In this document: positions 16,202 to 20,132 of the stretch, in pieces | Position numbering within the stretch: position 1 is the first letter of the stretch | Layout: each line of letters starts with the position of its first letter | From: Escherichia phage PSD2002 | Reading direction: 5' to 3' (one strand) | Sequence record: OK335775.1 | Length of the DNA: 64,000 nucleotides | The notes under the pieces: generated by a model | Seen by the model: the letters and a program-made list of their open reading frames with translations, nothing else | Told to the model about the DNA's origin: nothing | Database searches by the model: none | Position numbers and translations under genes: made by a program

Positions 16202-16636
16202 ATGAGTAAAGAGATTGAGTACAAGTTGGAGTCGTTTCAAGATGCTTTGGATGAAGATTTAAAGATTGATGGGACTCGTTTACAGTACGAAGTACAGAAC
16301 AACGTTTTGCTGCACAGCAAATGGCTAAGGCTGTATACGAATTGTAAGAAAGAAATAATGAGATTAGAAATCCAGAAAAAGACCTCACTTAAGAAGCGAT
16401 TAGATTTCTACACGGGACGTGGAGAGCCTGGTGATGAGGTTTGTATGGACCAATATGAGAAATCTGAATTAAAGACCGTTATGGCTGCGGATTCTAGTGT
16501 AATTAAAATCGACACATCAATTCAGTATTGGGCTTTATTACAAGACTTTTGTAGTTCAGCACTTGATGCTATTAAGGCGCGTGGTTTTAACCTTAAGACC
16601 ATGCATGAGATGAGACAATTTGAGGCGGGCAAATGA
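16202..16636 (+). CDS. uvsY: recombination mediator UvsY
   Basis: Track ORF 16169..16636 trimmed to MSKEIEYKLESF...; strongly resembles T4 UvsY (LQYE...KSE.KTV.AD..V.K.DTS.QYW..L.DFCS.ALDAIK.RGF). Confidence 0.9.
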   Translation: MSKEIEYKLESFQDALDEDLKIDGTRLQYEVQNNVLLHSKWLRLYTNCKKEIMRLEIQKKTSLKKRLDFYTGRGEPGDEVCMDQYEKSELKTVMAADSSVIKIDTSIQYWALLQDFCSSALDAIKARGFNLKTMHEMRQFEAGK

Positions 16637-16737
16637 GTTATCGTAAACCAGTCATCAATAAATGCCCTAAACCATCTAAAGAGCGGATGGACGAACTCCA
16701 AAAATTCATTAATGCTGCTTTAGCAAGTAATAAATAG
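16633..16737 (+). CDS. small hypothetical ORF (34 aa), ATGA overlap with uvsY stop
   Basis: ATG overlapping uvsY TGA; position of T4 uvsY.-1; below track cutoff. Confidence 0.3.
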   Translation: MSYRKPVINKCPKPSKERMDELQKFINAALASNK

Positions 16738-16765
16738 GTATGTAAGTTAAACTAAGGAGACAATC

Positions 16766-16933
16766 ATGTCAGATAAGATTTGCGTTGTCTGTAAAACTCC
16801 AATCGATGCTGCATTGGTTGTTGAAACAGAAAAAGGTCCGGTTCATCCGGGCTCATGCTATAATTACGTTCAAAGCCTGCCGGTTACGGAAAACACTGAA
16901 GAACAGCTGAACGAAACCCAATTACTACTTTAG
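16766..16933 (+). CDS. small Cys-containing hypothetical protein (55 aa)
   Basis: Strong RBS AAGGAGA 7 nt before ATG; MSDKICVVCKTP...GSCYNY; terminator directly downstream; below track cutoff. Confidence 0.35.
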   Translation: MSDKICVVCKTPIDAALVVETEKGPVHPGSCYNYVQSLPVTENTEEQLNETQLLL

Positions 16934-16962
16934 TCTAGTGTGTATAGCCATTTATGGTTATT

Positions 16963-16990
16963 GGCCCTTCCGAAAGGTTGGGCCTTTTTT
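16963..16990 (+). terminator. rho-independent terminator GGCCCTTCCGAAAGGTTGGGCC + T6 (repeated element)
   Basis: GC stem plus T-run; near-identical copies at about 62337 and 62980. Confidence 0.6.
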
Positions 16991-16992
16991 GT

Positions 16993-17220
16993 TTAGAAAT
17001 CTTCCTCTTCCTCGTCGTCCATCGACTCCAATTCAGCTCTCTTACCAGCCAATGCATCACGCACGCTAATATCATCCGAATCACGAAGTTCGGCTTCCTT
17101 ACTACGAGTTTTGTAATACTTTTCCAATTCCTTCAGACCATCCATAGTCTGACAAGAACCAATTTTAGCCATGAAGCTTTCAATAGATGCTTCTTGAATA
17201 ACTTCTTTAAAGGTTTTCAT
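16993..17220 (-). CDS. uvsW.1: UvsW.1-like small acidic protein
   Basis: 75 aa (T4 UvsW.1 76 aa); position downstream of uvsW. Confidence 0.55.
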   Translation of the reverse strand: MKTFKEVIQEASIESFMAKIGSCQTMDGLKELEKYYKTRSKEAELRDSDDISVRDALAGKRAELESMDDEEEEDF

Positions 17221-17912
17221 AAATCCACCTGTTTCATTAAATTTCTGATTTTGTGACGAGAAAGACCCGTGGCTTCAGAAGCTTGTTTCATCGAGCCATA
17301 TTCAACACCATTTATAGTAACCTTTTTAGCTGCCGGGTTTTTAGATGGGTCTTTATATCTTTCTTTAGCTTTATCTGAAATTTTCTTAGAAGCTTCAGGG
17401 GTATGATTTTTACCATACATGCCGTTGCCGGCACCGGAATTTCTTTCAGATATAGCTTGACATTGTTCTTGCGTGTATTTATAAGGATTCGCTTTTTTAG
17501 TTGCAGATATTTTATCGCCCCATAAAATAGGTCTACCTTTAAATAAATTGCTCATATATTCTTTATGAGCTTCAGTGTGGTGCTTACCGTAAAATGGATT
17601 TCCTTCTCCAGTCTGAAGAATTGCCAATTGCCTACGTTCCCACCCATATGATTTACTAAATTGTCTTTTATGAGTCCTGGAGCTCATACCCATAGAAATA
17701 ACAGCTTTTATGAGACCGTAGTTATTTGGATAAATTTTGGCCAGTAATTTATGAGCTATAAAATGTTCTTCTGGGGTAAGGCGTACTCTATTTTCTTGAG
17801 TATCAGGCCCACCAATACACGACGGGATAATATGATGAGATTCTGTATAACCCATAGGTTTAGAAGCCTTTCGGCTTCTAATTAAATTGTCATAAATTTT
17901 TTGATAATTCAA
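17217..17912 (-). CDS. free-standing HNH homing endonuclease with NUMOD3 and NUMOD1 motifs; TTG start
   Basis: HNH motif HHIIPSCIGG...ENRVRLTPEEHFIAH; NUMOD3-like NPFYGKHHTEAHKEYMS and NGMYGKNHTPEASKKIS; C-terminal HTH; first codon reads TTG, overlapping the uvsW stop. Confidence 0.85.
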   Translation of the reverse strand: MNYQKIYDNLIRSRKASKPMGYTESHHIIPSCIGGPDTQENRVRLTPEEHFIAHKLLAKIYPNNYGLIKAVISMGMSSRTHKRQFSKSYGWERRQLAILQTGEGNPFYGKHHTEAHKEYMSNLFKGRPILWGDKISATKKANPYKYTQEQCQAISERNSGAGNGMYGKNHTPEASKKISDKAKERYKDPSKNPAAKKVTINGVEYGSMKQASEATGLSRHKIRNLMKQVDL

Positions 17913-19405
17913 ATTTGGACCTCTTTCATGACATAATTAAATTTCTCGTCTGCGTACCGTTGAATACGTTCTAATCCATGTTTTAATGCATAATTTAGGT
18001 GAATGTATTTCTTTTTAGAATCTTTGGATTTAGGTTTCACCCCCATGTCATCGATGATGTCAAAAACTTGGGCTGTTGTTTTAGATTTGTGTTTACGTAA
18101 AACCCTTCCTATGGTTTGCAGTACCGTTACCTTGGATTTTACTGGATGGGCAAATACAACGTGGTGAAGGTTCTTAACGGAAATACCTGTAGAGAACACA
18201 CCATAACTTGCCACAACAATAATACCCTTACCATTTTCCGCCATTACCTTCAGAGCATTACGCGTTTCGGTATTAACTTCACCCGATACGTAATAAACTT
18301 CTTTATGTTGCTCTTTAACCATTTCAAAAAGAGTTTTACCGTGTTCGATGTTTTTAAACATCAGGAATACGTTCTCTTCTTTCTTAGCGAGTTTAACAGC
18401 TAAATTAGCAACCCATTTATTACGACGAGTAGCCTTAGTAATGACCTTGATTTCTGATTGGTAATCTTTACCTTTCATTTTAACCGTGAATTCGTCTGGG
18501 TATCGAAGGAAAATACTGTTGATTTTAAGGTCAGTAACCTGTCCTTCTTCCATTAATTGGGAGGTGGATACTGGCTTAAACACATCACCAAACAAGCCCA
18601 TATATTGCATTAAATTAGCTTTACCATCTTTTAAAGAACCCGACAAACCGAATTTAAACATACAGTTGGTTAGGCCTTCGATGATAGTAGAAATAGATTT
18701 ACCTGTAGCCAAATGGCATTCGTCGTTCATAAACATACCGAACTGAGCAAACCATTCTTTAGGTTGCTTGATAGCGGTTTGATAAGTTGAAACATAAATC
18801 ATTGCATCGGAATCACGAGCAGTACCTGAACGAATACCAAGCATTGCGGCTTTAGGGAACAGACGATAATCGATGAAGTCATTAATCATCTGGTCGACAA
18901 GTGCAGTAGTAGGAACTAATATAAGGATTTTACCTTCATAGTTCTCAACGTAATATCGACTCAGGAGCGCCTGGATTAATGATTTACCTGCGGATGTAGG
19001 TAAATTCAGAATTGCACGACGTTTTGTCAGGCCGTTGTATACGGCTTCATTCTGATACCAATGAGGCTCAATCTTGGTAGACCCTGAATAAATTTCTTGA
19101 GAAGCCACCCATGAGTCAAAATCTTCACGAGAAATATCTTCCTGTTCAAGAATACGTGGGTCAATCCACAGAGAGTATTCAAATTGTTCAGCGAACTTTT
19201 TAATTTGAGGAACCAATCCATATGGCAGTTTACGGTTATAATCCAGAAGGCGAATACGTCCGTCCCATTGACCATAACGAAATTTAGGGTTGAATTTATA
19301 TCCATCAGCTTCAAAGCTAAAATAGTCTCTGAGTTCGTAGAATGTAGATTCATCGCATTCAATACGGACATGACTAAAATTATCAAAATGTACTTGAATT
19401 TGCAT
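17909..19405 (-). CDS. uvsW: UvsW helicase
   Basis: 498 aa; Walker A (PTSAGKS), DECH box; N-terminus resembles T4 UvsW. Confidence 0.9.
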   Translation of the reverse strand: MQIQVHFDNFSHVRIECDESTFYELRDYFSFEADGYKFNPKFRYGQWDGRIRLLDYNRKLPYGLVPQIKKFAEQFEYSLWIDPRILEQEDISREDFDSWVASQEIYSGSTKIEPHWYQNEAVYNGLTKRRAILNLPTSAGKSLIQALLSRYYVENYEGKILILVPTTALVDQMINDFIDYRLFPKAAMLGIRSGTARDSDAMIYVSTYQTAIKQPKEWFAQFGMFMNDECHLATGKSISTIIEGLTNCMFKFGLSGSLKDGKANLMQYMGLFGDVFKPVSTSQLMEEGQVTDLKINSIFLRYPDEFTVKMKGKDYQSEIKVITKATRRNKWVANLAVKLAKKEENVFLMFKNIEHGKTLFEMVKEQHKEVYYVSGEVNTETRNALKVMAENGKGIIVVASYGVFSTGISVKNLHHVVFAHPVKSKVTVLQTIGRVLRKHKSKTTAQVFDIIDDMGVKPKSKDSKKKYIHLNYALKHGLERIQRYADEKFNYVMKEVQI

Positions 19406-19419
19406 AAGTAATTCTCAGT

Positions 19420-19441
19420 TATAAATATAGTTATATTTATA
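19420..19441. promoter_or_regulatory. divergent late promoters (TATAAATA on + for inh/hoc; TATAAATA on the reverse strand for uvsW)
   Basis: TATAAATA at 19420-19427 (+) and complement of TATTTATA at 19434-19441. Confidence 0.55.
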
Positions 19442-19460
19442 CACCAACAAGAGACTAATT

Positions 19461-20132
19461 ATGGATACTCAATATATTGAAGAGCTTCGTGCACTCGAAG
19501 ATAAAAAAGAAGCTAAAGCTAAGTTAATCGAATACGGCGAACAGTTCGGTTTAAAACTTAAGAAAACCCGTTCGTTTGATAATTTGATTATCGATATCTC
19601 TGAAGGCCTTAAAGCCTTGGCTGACGAACCACTCCCAGAAACCGAAGGGTTGTCCATTTCTGATTTGATTGATGCTGCCGACGAACTTACAGGTGCTAAC
19701 GAATTTGTTGATGGTGCTGAACCAGCTAAAGAAGAAGCCACCCTGTTGTTCGATGCCCCTGAGGCTGCAGTAGAAGTCGTTGAGGTAGCCGAACTTCCTA
19801 AGGTAGAGATTATCGAAGAGGATGTTCCATTTGACGAAGAGAAATTCAAAGGGGCTATAGCCAAGGTTGTTGAATCTGAAAAACCTGTATTCTCTTTACC
19901 TGAAAACTTCAGTCCTAATCTTTTGCTTATCGGTAAGAACCCAGGTTATTGCACCGTTCCTTGGTGGATTTACCAATGGATTTCTGAGACTCCGGATTGG
20001 AAAGAACGTCCAACTGCTTTCCAACATCCTTCTGCCCACCAAACATTATTTAGTCTGATTTATTACATTAATCGTAATGGTTCAGTATTAGTACGTGAAA
20101 CTCGTAACTCATCTTTTGTCACTTTAAAATAA
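19461..20132 (+). CDS. inh: Inh-like protein (inhibitor of prohead protease), by position
   Basis: 223 aa (T4 Inh about 226 aa); located between uvsW and hoc as in T4; no diagnostic motif recognised. Confidence 0.5.
   Translation: MDTQYIEELRALEDKKEAKAKLIEYGEQFGLKLKKTRSFDNLIIDISEGLKALADEPLPETEGLSISDLIDAADELTGANEFVDGAEPAKEEATLLFDAPEAAVEVVEVAELPKVEIIEEDVPFDEEKFKGAIAKVVESEKPVFSLPENFSPNLLLIGKNPGYCTVPWWIYQWISETPDWKERPTAFQHPSAHQTLFSLIYYINRNGSVLVRETRNSSFVTLK

What the first reader, a model, noticed from the sequence alone, without database searches (positions are those of the whole stretch)
17217..17912. HNH-NUMOD homing endonuclease between uvsW and uvsW.1, with TTG start
A 231-aa ORF has an HNH motif (HHIIP...ENRVRLTPEEHFIAH), two NUMOD3-like repeats and a C-terminal NUMOD1-like HTH. 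It sits exactly between uvsW and uvsW.1, which are adjacent in T4. Its first codon reads TTG and overlaps the uvsW stop, with an AAGAGG RBS inside the uvsW 3' end, suggesting weak, coupled expression typical of selfish endonucleases.
Basis: partly seen in the sequence, partly recalled or inferred. Interest (0 to 1): 0.6.

Follow-up and report, generated by a model that had tools for sequence, protein, structure and literature searches.

The report
Mobile HNH nuclease gene beside uvsW
A selfish, mobile nuclease gene (a MobE-like HNH homing endonuclease) has recently copied itself into the junction of two DNA-repair genes of a T4-like coliphage; the kind of element is ordinary, but this copy preserves unusually clean footprints of its arrival and of how it plugs into its host's translation signals.

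Summary
Window 17217-17912 (minus strand) is an intact 231-aa ORF wedged between uvsW and uvsW.1 of a Dhakavirus (protein identical to PSD2002_0132). Its TTG start overlaps the uvsW stop (TTGA), with AAGAGG 7 nt upstream. Its stop overlaps the uvsW.1 start (ATGA). The N-terminus is 56% identical to the HNH domain of T4 MobE. The C-terminus is an I-TevI-type DNA-binding module (two NUMOD3 repeats plus a helix-turn-helix). Near-identical phages (PSD9, QL01, WG01) have an empty site. Against them the window differs only by the gene plus a 202-nt, 28%-diverged stretch of uvsW just upstream, a co-conversion footprint. Relatives down to 49% identity sit at the same junction in several T4-like genera, always with an NTGA start/stop overlap, mostly TTG or GTG. 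About 10% of the matching records in each of three searches are occupied. New detail: the last 5-7 codons of the gene are the resident uvsW tail, and uvsW receives a surrogate tail that carries the endonuclease's ribosome-binding site. The idea that the element split an ancestral uvsW found no support. Verdict: an uncharacterised member of a known kind of element, of low-to-moderate interest.

The parts
17217..17912 (-). Free-standing HNH homing-endonuclease gene (231 aa), TTG start, TGA stop
   Evidence: ORF. PHROG 655 'homing endonuclease' at 4.7e-53. 100% identical to PSD2002_0132. Omega 0.05-0.17.
17751..17849 (-). HNH catalytic motif (residues 22-54; H26, H27, N41, H50, H54), MobE-type
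   Evidence: H27, N41, H50 and H54 are invariant in 56 homologs, and H26 is present in at least 90% of them. Residues 1-72 are 56% identical to T4 MobE, E 1e-26. The family profile matches the McrA HNH motif at 3.7e-4. The AF2 model gives strand 24-27, strand 42-45 and helix 47-60.
17511..17615 (-). NUMOD3 repeat 1 (GEGNPFYGKHHT... around residues 100-134)
   Evidence: Pfam NUMOD3 with 2 stretches. Motif positions. BLASTP to I-TevI residues 170-197.
17376..17480 (-). NUMOD3 repeat 2 (residues 145-179)
   Evidence: Best Pfam NUMOD3 stretch is 145-179.
17229..17351 (-). C-terminal I-TevI-type helix-turn-helix DNA-binding region (residues 188-228)
   Evidence: Profile match to the I-TevI DNA-binding domain 1i3j at E 4.1e-5, profile positions 154-219. 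Foldseek top hit is 1i3j with probability 0.98. Pfam I-TevI_DNA-bd hits 6 of 15 orthologs.
17909..17929 (-). Surrogate uvsW tail ATGAAAGAGGTCCAAATTTGA (MKEVQI*), which carries the HEG Shine-Dalgarno AAGAGG (17925-17920) and the TTGA start/stop overlap
   Evidence: The empty alleles read ATGAAACAGGTGGATTTATGA (MKQVDL*) here.
17217..17239 (-). Displaced resident uvsW tail TAATGAAACAGGTGGATTTATGA, now the last 6 codons of the HEG (…LMKQVDL*). It keeps the original SD and ATGA coupling to uvsW.1
   Evidence: 23 of 23 nt identical to the uvsW 3' end of the empty phages JS10, PSD9, QL01 and WG01. The same arrangement is seen in Gaprivervirus (SP18 against TH57) and Tequatrovirus (ACG-C40 against RB51).
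17933..18134 (-). Co-converted (donor-derived) 3' part of uvsW: 57 mismatches in 202 nt against the otherwise near-identical empty-site phage PSD9
   Evidence: Mismatch map. All 13 UvsW amino-acid changes lie in residues 426-498. The empty-versus-empty control shows no such peak.
17909..19405 (-). uvsW helicase gene (498 aa, same length as in empty-site phages)
   Evidence: Pfam UvsW_N, ResIII, Helicase_C. JS10 uvsW is also 498 aa.
16993..17220 (-). uvsW.1 (75 aa), start ATG overlapping the HEG stop
   Evidence: Pfam UvsW-1 2.5e-24..
19434..19441 (-). T4-type late-promoter consensus TATAAATA 28 nt upstream of the uvsW ATG. It is the likely source of the uvsW-HEG-uvsW.1 transcript
   Evidence: Function is inferred from the consensus only.

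Best explanation
This is a free-standing, MobE-type HNH homing-endonuclease gene that entered a WG01/QL01/PSD9-like Dhakavirus genome recently by homing, that is, recombinational repair from an HEG-carrying co-infecting phage. The protein joins an N-terminal MobE-like HNH nuclease domain to an I-TevI-like extended DNA-binding module of two NUMOD3 repeats and a helix-turn-helix.

Inferred mechanism. In a mixed infection the enzyme recognises the conserved 3' end of uvsW or the uvsW/uvsW.1 junction of an HEG-less phage and nicks or cuts it. Repair that uses the HEG-carrying genome as template copies the gene together with about 120-200 nt of donor uvsW. The occupied allele is protected because the insert splits the junction and the adjacent uvsW sequence is diverged.

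Anatomy shown here. The element effectively sits inside the last approximately 6 codons of uvsW. It supplies a surrogate uvsW C-terminus and stop (MKEVQI*), whose nucleotides also serve as its own Shine-Dalgarno sequence and TTG start. Its ORF reads out through the displaced resident uvsW tail and ends at the original stop. UvsW therefore keeps its length, and uvsW.1 keeps its original SD and ATGA coupling.

Inferred expression. The gene is co-transcribed with uvsW from the late promoter. It is translated at a low level by termination-reinitiation at a weak TTG codon.
For: Shown:
(1) Domain identity. Residues 1-72 are 56% identical to T4 MobE (E 1e-26). The HNH residues H27, N41, H50 and H54 are invariant in 56 homologs, and H26 is present in at least 90% of them. 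Pfam HNH hits 11 of 15 orthologs. NUMOD3 occurs twice. The I-TevI DNA-binding domain is matched by profile (4e-5), by BLASTP (2e-4) and by Foldseek (top hit, probability 0.98).
(2) The ORF is under purifying selection, with omega 0.05-0.17.
(3) Presence/absence polymorphism. PSD9, QL01 and WG01 are empty at this site. Against PSD9 the window has 1 mismatch in about 750 nt of upstream uvsW and 1 in about 540 nt downstream. It has 57 mismatches in the 202 nt of uvsW that adjoin the insert.
(4) The same one-sided divergent tract appears in UP19 against JS10, UGJNEcP3 against PSD9, Bp7 against PSD9 and ACG-C40 against RB51 (37 mismatches in 118 nt). It is absent in the empty-versus-empty comparison JS10 against PSD9.
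(5) The same HEG (dS 0.15-0.22) sits in three different Dhakavirus backbones: the window, ESCO10 and UP19.
(6) Site specificity. Members down to 49% identity all lie in the order uvsW, HEG, uvsW.1, in Dhaka-, Gapriver-, Tequatro-, Moon- and Bragavirus, in Klebsiella phages and on metagenomic contigs.
(7) An NTGA start/stop overlap is present in all 16 loci examined, and 12 of them use TTG or GTG. The N-terminal residues M1, Y3 and Y7 are conserved, and helix 3-16 is modelled at pLDDT 97.
(8) The HEG tail equals the resident uvsW tail in three genera where a true empty allele is available.
(9) No intron or other RNA family is found.

From the literature: MobA and MobE nick their targets. Free-standing HEGs cleave at a distance from their own gene and co-convert the flanks. 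The mobE start overlaps the nrdA stop (PMC2988022).
Confidence: 0.85

Rival explanations
1. The gene is an old, vertically inherited resident of the uvsW operon. It has been lost many times, for example by deletion between the two uvsW-tail repeats, and is not a currently mobile element.
For: The gene is at the same site in many genera, and its divergence (49-98%) roughly tracks the host genus. The flanking 16-23-nt direct repeats could mediate precise deletion.
Against: Deletion between the repeats would leave the diverged upstream uvsW tract behind. Yet PSD9, QL01 and WG01 carry the uvsW 3' end typical of other empty Dhakaviruses, and the window alone has the foreign 202-nt tract contiguous with the gene. 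The same HEG occurs in three different backbones. Only about 10% of the matching records in each of three searches are occupied (6 of 56, 8 of 76, 49 of 502).
Confidence: 0.07
2. The ORF is a decaying or inactive endonuclease relic, like T4 I-TevIII, that persists only because it does no harm.
For: Pfam HNH does not score this sequence. The weak TTG start could mean little or no expression.
Against: The ORF is full length and all HNH motif residues are intact. Omega is 0.05-0.17, including 0.05 against ESCO10 at dS 0.15. The acquisition footprint is recent.
Confidence: 0.05
3. The ORF is not translated from the TTG. Either it starts at the internal ATG (M20), or it is made as a UvsW-HEG fusion by a -1 frameshift at the uvsW stop.
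For: RefSeq annotates the SP18 ortholog from a downstream ATG. The HEG frame is -1 relative to uvsW, and an SD lies just upstream of a stop codon.
Against: M20 is Leu in UP19 and Ile in SP18. Residues 1-19 are conserved across 56 homologs and across T4 MobE. An NTG codon occupies the same position in all 16 loci, while the nucleotides before it vary (CAAATT, AAACTT, AAATTG, AATTTA), so there is no conserved slippery heptamer.
Confidence: 0.03
4. The protein is an HNH nuclease with a different role, such as a packaging co-factor, an anti-host or anti-phage weapon, or a repair factor working with UvsW, and it is merely located here.
For: HNH domains serve many roles. The neighbours are recombination and repair genes.
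Against: The gene is dispensable, since most relatives lack it. The architecture is that of homing endonucleases: a MobE-type HNH domain plus an I-TevI-type DNA-binding domain. Co-conversion footprints are present. A second, different HNH HEG alternates at the same site.
Confidence: 0.03

Closest known systems
T4 MobE (free-standing HNH homing endonuclease between nrdA and nrdB)
   Same: The N-terminal HNH domain is 56% identical over 73 residues (E 1e-26). Both genes are free-standing and sit between two genes of one pathway. In both, the start codon overlaps the stop of the upstream gene (PMC2988022). MobE is reported to nick its target and to be inherited at high frequency (PMC2988022).
   Different: MobE has 141 aa and lacks the NUMOD3/HTH module; nothing beyond residue 72 aligns. 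It has a different insertion site and target (nrdB). MobE starts with AUG, whereas this gene starts with TTG. The ACG-C40 ortholog is labelled 'MobE' in its record, which holds only for the catalytic domain.
I-TevI (GIY-YIG, td intron) DNA-binding domain
   Same: The NUMOD3 repeats and C-terminal HTH align with I-TevI residues 162-234 (27% identity, E 2e-4; profile match to 1i3j at 4e-5; Foldseek top hit). This suggests an extended, modular, minor-groove plus HTH way of binding a long site, with the nuclease domain tethered at a distance.
   Different: The catalytic domain is HNH, not GIY-YIG. The gene is not intron-encoded. The zinc finger was not detected in this protein; I-TevI_ZnF appears only weakly, in 2 of 15 orthologs.
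Bp7-type HNH endonuclease (Bp7, UGJNEcP3/4, Yersinia phage P8) at the same uvsW/uvsW.1 junction
   Same: It has the same insertion point and the same NTGA overlap with the uvsW stop. The N-terminus is MobE-like (55% identity over residues 1-59). A diverged uvsW tract lies upstream. In P8 it also ends in the resident uvsW tail...FIKQVEI.
   Different: It has 260 aa and is 29% identical overall. Its C-terminal region is unrelated, so it presumably has a different recognition sequence.
T4 SegE (GIY-YIG, between inh and uvsW)
   Same: It is another free-standing homing endonuclease whose listed target is uvsW (Table in PMC2988022). uvsW is therefore a known homing target in T-even phages.
   Different: It belongs to a different nuclease family and sits on the other side of uvsW. 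It is absent from this window: inh at 19461 and uvsW at 19405 are separated by only 55 nt.
Aeh1 mobE in nrdA ('genes-in-pieces')
   Same: An HNH HEG is placed within or at the edge of a coding sequence, and the flanking coding parts remain functional (cited in PMC2988022).
   Different: In Aeh1 the host gene is split into two polypeptides. Here UvsW keeps its full length by receiving a surrogate 6-codon tail. No fused UvsW-UvsW.1 ancestor could be found.

Membership tests
HNH (beta-beta-alpha-metal) nuclease superfamily | Conserved His(-His)...Asn...His motif | tested here: met
   H27, N41, H50 and H54 are invariant and H26 is present in at least 90% of 56 homologs. The motif aligns with the HNH motifs of McrA, IscB and Cas8f-HNH.
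HNH (beta-beta-alpha-metal) nuclease superfamily | Significant match to a curated HNH family model | tested here: inconclusive
   The window protein has no Pfam HNH hit at E<=1. Of 15 orthologs, 11 hit PF01844 (best 6e-6) and 10 hit HNH_5. The family profile matches McrA at 3.7e-4. Residues 1-72 are 56% identical to the T4 MobE HNH domain.
HNH (beta-beta-alpha-metal) nuclease superfamily | Beta-hairpin plus helix fold around the motif | tested here: inconclusive
HNH (beta-beta-alpha-metal) nuclease superfamily | Metal-dependent DNA nicking or cleavage | not testable with these tools
   Needs purified protein.
I-TevI-type modular DNA-binding region (NUMOD3 + HTH) | NUMOD3 repeats above the Pfam gathering score | tested here: met
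   45.8 bits against a cut-off of 20.4, 2 stretches. 15 of 15 orthologs hit.
I-TevI-type modular DNA-binding region (NUMOD3 + HTH) | C-terminal HTH homologous to the I-TevI DNA-binding domain | tested here: met
   Profile match to 1i3j at 4.1e-5. BLASTP to I-TevI at 2e-4. Foldseek probability 0.98. The single-sequence Pfam hit is only 0.067.
   NUMOD1 is not among the families hit by any of the 15 members at E<=1.
Free-standing homing endonuclease gene (functional class) | Presence/absence polymorphism at one site in otherwise near-identical genomes | tested here: met
   The window compared with PSD9, QL01 and WG01. Occupied records are 6 of 56, 8 of 76 and 49 of 502.
Free-standing homing endonuclease gene (functional class) | Co-conversion of flanking sequence with the gene | tested here: met
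   57 mismatches in the 202 nt upstream, against 1 in about 750 nt further upstream and 1 in about 540 nt downstream. Replicated in four other occupied-versus-empty pairs, with a clean control.
Free-standing homing endonuclease gene (functional class) | Not inside an intron or intein | tested here: met
   No Rfam family at E<=1 in 16500-19600. The ORF is bounded by the uvsW stop and the uvsW.1 start.
Free-standing homing endonuclease gene (functional class) | Site-specific cleavage of the HEG-less allele and over-representation in the progeny of crosses | not testable with these tools
   Requires in vitro cleavage assays and PSD2002 x PSD9 co-infection.
T4 MobE orthologs | Full-length similarity and the nrdA/nrdB location | tested here: not met
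   Only residues 1-72 align. The location is uvsW/uvsW.1. It is MobE-like in its catalytic domain and is not a MobE ortholog.

The most novel reading that the evidence does not exclude
The uvsW-tail duplication may be a general and so far undescribed way for intron-less homing endonuclease genes to invade the 3' end of a coding sequence without harm. The cassette brings a surrogate C-terminus and stop for the host gene, and these nucleotides double as its own SD and (weak) start. The endonuclease ORF then reads out through the displaced host tail, so the downstream gene keeps its native translational coupling. The two tail copies would also act as built-in homology arms next to the cut site. 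The same site is contested by two HEG lineages that share a MobE-type nuclease domain but carry different DNA-binding domains.
Probability: 0.3. Interest if true: 0.45.

Novelty: new member of a known kind. Interest (0 to 1): 0.3.

Why it matters
The element gives a natural before-and-after pair for HNH 'mob'-type homing. PSD9, QL01 and WG01 carry the empty site, and the window phage (PSD2002) carries the occupied one. The mechanism of this kind of homing, in which a nick rather than a double-strand break is thought to start the event, is listed as an open question in the T4 mobile-DNA review (PMC2988022). The one-sided 120-200-nt co-conversion tract narrows the search for the cut site to the last roughly 140-200 nt of uvsW. 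The surrogate-tail and duplicated-initiation-region arrangement shows how a selfish gene can sit inside a translationally coupled operon without changing the length of UvsW or the coupling of uvsW.1. For genome annotation it shows that these genes start at TTG or GTG codons overlapping the uvsW stop, a start that some records miss (SP18). The element itself is not a new kind of system.

Tried and rejected
(1) HEG insertion split an ancestral uvsW-uvsW.1 gene ('genes in pieces'). All 63 close UvsW.1 homologs are 54-96 aa. A UvsW.1 profile search of 1.84 billion representatives found 34 hits. These were stand-alone proteins of 40-145 aa, proteins of about 260-300 aa with the domain at the N-terminus, and two long repetitive proteins. 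None was a helicase of about 580 aa with the domain at its C-terminus. The idea is unsupported.

(2) An RBS-sequestering hairpin of the I-TevI or Aeh1-mobE type. The fold of 17870-17990 is no more stable than shuffled sequence (z 0.16).

(3) An internal terminator in the HEG, as in T4 mobE. The hairpin at 17570-17550 is weak (-8.2 kcal/mol) and is lost in SP18 and L095.

(4) A group I intron or other structured RNA. There is no Rfam match at E<=1.

(5) A -1 frameshift fusion with UvsW. There is no conserved slippery site.

(6) Paralogs in the window. None were found by tblastn.

(7) Positions in the uvsW 3' end that separate occupied from empty alleles across genera and would define the target. 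Apart from the tail itself, none is consistent. For example, G477 also occurs in the empty phages TH57 and RB51.

(8) An early reading that the ACG-C40 HEG tail (RKTVNL) came from a Klebsiella-phage uvsW. It was replaced by the simpler finding that this is the resident Tequatrovirus tail (RB51).

(9) Whole-chain fold searches. They were uninformative beyond weak matches to the I-TevI DNA-binding domain and to HNH domains, because the model is an extended multi-domain chain (pTM 0.57).

(10) Literature. No paper describing an endonuclease between uvsW and uvsW.1 was found in the searchable library.
Full report
OBSERVATION

On the minus strand, window 17217..17912 is a 231-aa ORF.
- Its first codon is TTG (17912-17910). 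It overlaps the TGA stop of the upstream 498-aa ORF (17911-17909) as TTGA.
- AAGAGG lies at 17925-17920, 7 nt upstream of the TTG.
- Its TGA stop (17219-17217) overlaps the ATG of the downstream 75-aa ORF as ATGA.
- The upstream ORF is UvsW (Pfam UvsW_N 6e-44, ResIII, Helicase_C). The downstream ORF is UvsW.1 (Pfam UvsW-1 2.5e-24).

WHAT THE PROTEIN IS

PHROG 655 ('homing endonuclease') matches at 4.7e-53.

HNH status. No Pfam HNH model scores this particular sequence at E<=1. The assignment is nevertheless solid:
- Residues 1-72 are 56% identical to the HNH domain of T4 MobE (E 1e-26).
- PF01844 hits 11 of 15 orthologs.
- A profile of the orthologs matches the HNH motifs of McrA (3.7e-4), Cas8f-HNH, a group II intron maturase and IscB.
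- H27, N41, H50 and H54 are invariant in 56 homologs, and H26 is present in at least 90% of them.
- An AlphaFold model (pLDDT 89.6) places the motif on strand 24-27, strand 42-45 and helix 47-60.

DNA-binding region. The C-terminal half aligns with the I-TevI DNA-binding domain: profile to 1i3j at 4.1e-5, BLASTP to I-TevI at 2e-4, and Foldseek top hit with probability 0.98. Pfam NUMOD1 hit none of the 15 orthologs, so 'I-TevI-type HTH' is the accurate label.

The protein is therefore a domain mosaic of a MobE-type nuclease and an I-TevI-type DNA-binding module. It is under purifying selection, with omega 0.05-0.17. There is no RNA family or intron around it and no paralog in the window.

WHERE THE WINDOW COMES FROM, AND THE EMPTY SITE

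The protein is 100% identical to PSD2002_0132 of Escherichia phage PSD2002. The DNA is Dhakavirus.

In the phage collection, most relatives carry only the two flanks, about 710 nt apart. That is the case for 30 of the 40 listed rows, and only 6 of 56 matching records cover the whole query. In JS10 the uvsW stop and the uvsW.1 start overlap directly as ATGA.

The closest backbones are PSD9, QL01 and WG01, which are all empty. Against PSD9 the window has:
- 1 mismatch between 18881 and 18135;
- 57 mismatches between 18134 and 17933 (28% divergence);
- then the 693-nt gene;
- then 1 mismatch in the next roughly 540 nt.

All 13 UvsW amino-acid differences lie in residues 426-498. The last roughly 130 nt of uvsW and the gene itself are ESCO10-like (95-99%). 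The ESCO10 and UP19 backbones are otherwise different from the window.

This is the footprint of a recent homing or recombination event. The gene arrived in a WG01/QL01-type genome together with about 200 nt of donor uvsW on one side and essentially nothing on the other.

The same one-sided divergent tract is seen in four further occupied-versus-empty pairs: UP19 against JS10, UGJNEcP3 against PSD9, Bp7 against PSD9, and, in Tequatrovirus, ACG-C40 against RB51 (37 mismatches in 118 nt). Two empty phages compared with each other (JS10 against PSD9) show no such peak.

A SITE-SPECIFIC LINEAGE

Orthologs from 98% down to 49% identity all lie in the order uvsW, HEG, uvsW.1. They occur in Dhakavirus, Gaprivervirus (SP18), Tequatrovirus (ACG-C40), Moonvirus (NM4.3), Bragavirus (PM2), Klebsiella phages and metagenomic contigs.

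Occupied records are a minority among the matching records of each of three searches. The searches were seeded from a Tequatrovirus, a Gaprivervirus and the Dhakavirus window, and their hits are not confined to one genus: 49 of 502, 8 of 76 and 6 of 56.

A second HNH gene (Bp7 type, 260 aa, 29% identical overall) occupies the same junction in Bp7, UGJNEcP3/4 and Yersinia phage P8. It shares only the MobE-like N-terminus.

START CODON

In all 16 loci examined the start overlaps the uvsW stop as NTGA. The codon is TTG in 10 loci, GTG in 2 and ATG in 4.

The N-terminal residues are conserved, including in T4 MobE. The only in-frame ATG nearby (M20) is Leu or Ile in close relatives. The TTG is therefore the real start. 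The RefSeq call for SP18, at a downstream ATG, is probably too short.

No hairpin sequesters the SD, and there is no conserved slippery sequence for a frameshift fusion.

The T4 review notes that the AUG of mobE overlaps the nrdA stop. It interprets this as coupling that limits expression, and it notes that all T4 free-standing endonuclease ORFs but one start with AUG (PMC2988022). A weak start codon plus termination-reinitiation is thus a variant of a known theme. Low expression is inferred, not shown.

A TATAAATA late-promoter consensus lies 28 nt upstream of uvsW.

NEW ANATOMICAL DETAIL

The last 23 nt of the gene (TAATGAAACAGGTGGATTTATGA, encoding ...LMKQVDL*) are identical to the 3' end of uvsW in the empty phages (...VMKQVDL*). 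In the window, uvsW itself ends in a diverged copy (ATGAAAGAGGTCCAAATTTGA, MKEVQI*) that contains the SD and start of the endonuclease gene.

The same holds where true empty alleles are available in other genera:
- SP18 against TH57: IKQVEI, with about 24 nt identical.
- ACG-C40 against RB51: KTVNL, with 19 nt plus the downstream hairpin identical.
- PM2: 18 of 21 nt identical between the two copies.
- The Bp7-type gene in P8 also ends in the resident tail.

In effect the element sits inside the last approximately 6 codons of uvsW. UvsW receives a surrogate tail and keeps its 498-aa length. The endonuclease reads out through the displaced tail. uvsW.1 keeps its native SD and ATGA overlap.

The duplication is absent in NM4.3, Wolf_ER13, L095, L096 and Bp7. 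There the endonuclease 3' end has its own SD-like sequence before the ATGA. The duplication is therefore frequent but not obligatory.

MECHANISM (INFERRED)

The inference draws on MobA and MobE, which nick their targets, and on other free-standing endonucleases, which cut at a distance from their gene and co-convert the interval (PMC2988022). By analogy, the enzyme most likely recognises the strongly conserved uvsW 3' end or junction of HEG-less phages. The sequence ...LERIQRYADEKFNYVMK... is nearly invariant at the nucleotide level among the empty Dhakaviruses. The enzyme would nick or cut within the last roughly 140-200 nt of uvsW, and repair from the HEG-carrying genome would copy the gene across. 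Activity, cut site and polarity are untested.

REJECTED IDEAS

- That the element created the uvsW/uvsW.1 split. No fused helicase-UvsW.1 protein was found among 63 close homologs or in a profile search of 1.84 billion representatives.
- An internal terminator.
- An intron.
- Relic status.

NOVELTY

Orthologs are already annotated 'homing endonuclease' or 'MobE' in public records, and the family has its own PHROG. No paper describing this uvsW/uvsW.1 endonuclease was found in the searchable library. It is an uncharacterised member of a well-known kind of element. Its value lies in the clean natural donor/recipient pair and in the surrogate-tail arrangement. Interest 0.3.

Noticed in passing
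window 17476-17483 (minus strand): A perfect T4 late-promoter consensus TATAAATA lies inside the endonuclease ORF (codons P-Y-K-Y), 256 nt upstream of the uvsW.1 start. It is at the same offset (+429 from the start) in ESCO10, UP19, SP18 and the 75%-identical contig L095. It is absent in more distant orthologs. It could give uvsW.1 its own late transcript, or it could simply reflect codon usage.
   Followed up: partly
L002 (Bp7), L090 (UGJNEcP3), L101 (Yersinia phage P8) at the uvsW/uvsW.1 junction: A second HNH endonuclease lineage of 260 aa occupies exactly the same junction. It has the same MobE-like N-terminus but an unrelated C-terminal region. The two lineages appear mutually exclusive and may compete for the site.
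   Followed up: partly
window 19405-19461: inh and uvsW are divergent and only 55 nt apart, with back-to-back TATAAATA motifs (19420-19427 on the plus strand, 19434-19441 on the minus strand). T4 carries the GIY-YIG endonuclease gene segE in this gap. The window and all Dhakaviruses examined do not.
   Followed up: partly
L091 (T4 RefSeq NC_000866, 112677-114440): The T4 reference record still annotates uvsW as one 587-aa fused ORF, with a note on sequence discrepancies. RB51 and ACG-C40 show the true arrangement: stop, a GGGCTTCGGCCC hairpin, an SD, then the uvsW.1 ATG. Tequatroviruses thus separate the two genes by a hairpin, whereas Dhakaviruses overlap them as ATGA.
   Followed up: partly
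proteins P0203-P0217: Proteins of about 260-300 aa from metagenomes carry a UvsW.1-like domain at their N-terminus (E 1e-8 to 4e-4). The rest of these proteins was not examined.
   Followed up: no
L002 (Bp7) 389-601 and 912-1892: In the Bp7 record uvsW is annotated as two separate CDS with a gap of about 310 nt. This could be a frameshift, a sequencing error or real damage to uvsW next to the endonuclease gene.
   Followed up: no
L004 (SP18) 1985-2584: RefSeq starts the SP18 ortholog at a downstream ATG, which removes 32 conserved N-terminal residues that reach into the HNH motif (through H27, I28 and P30). The conserved TTG at 1889, overlapping the uvsW stop, is the likely true start.
   Followed up: yes
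window 19271-18881: A loose cluster of 12 substitutions against PSD9 lies in the 5' third of uvsW. None changes the UvsW protein. This stretch is separated from the endonuclease-linked tract by about 750 nt containing a single mismatch, so it may be a separate, older recombination patch.
   Followed up: no
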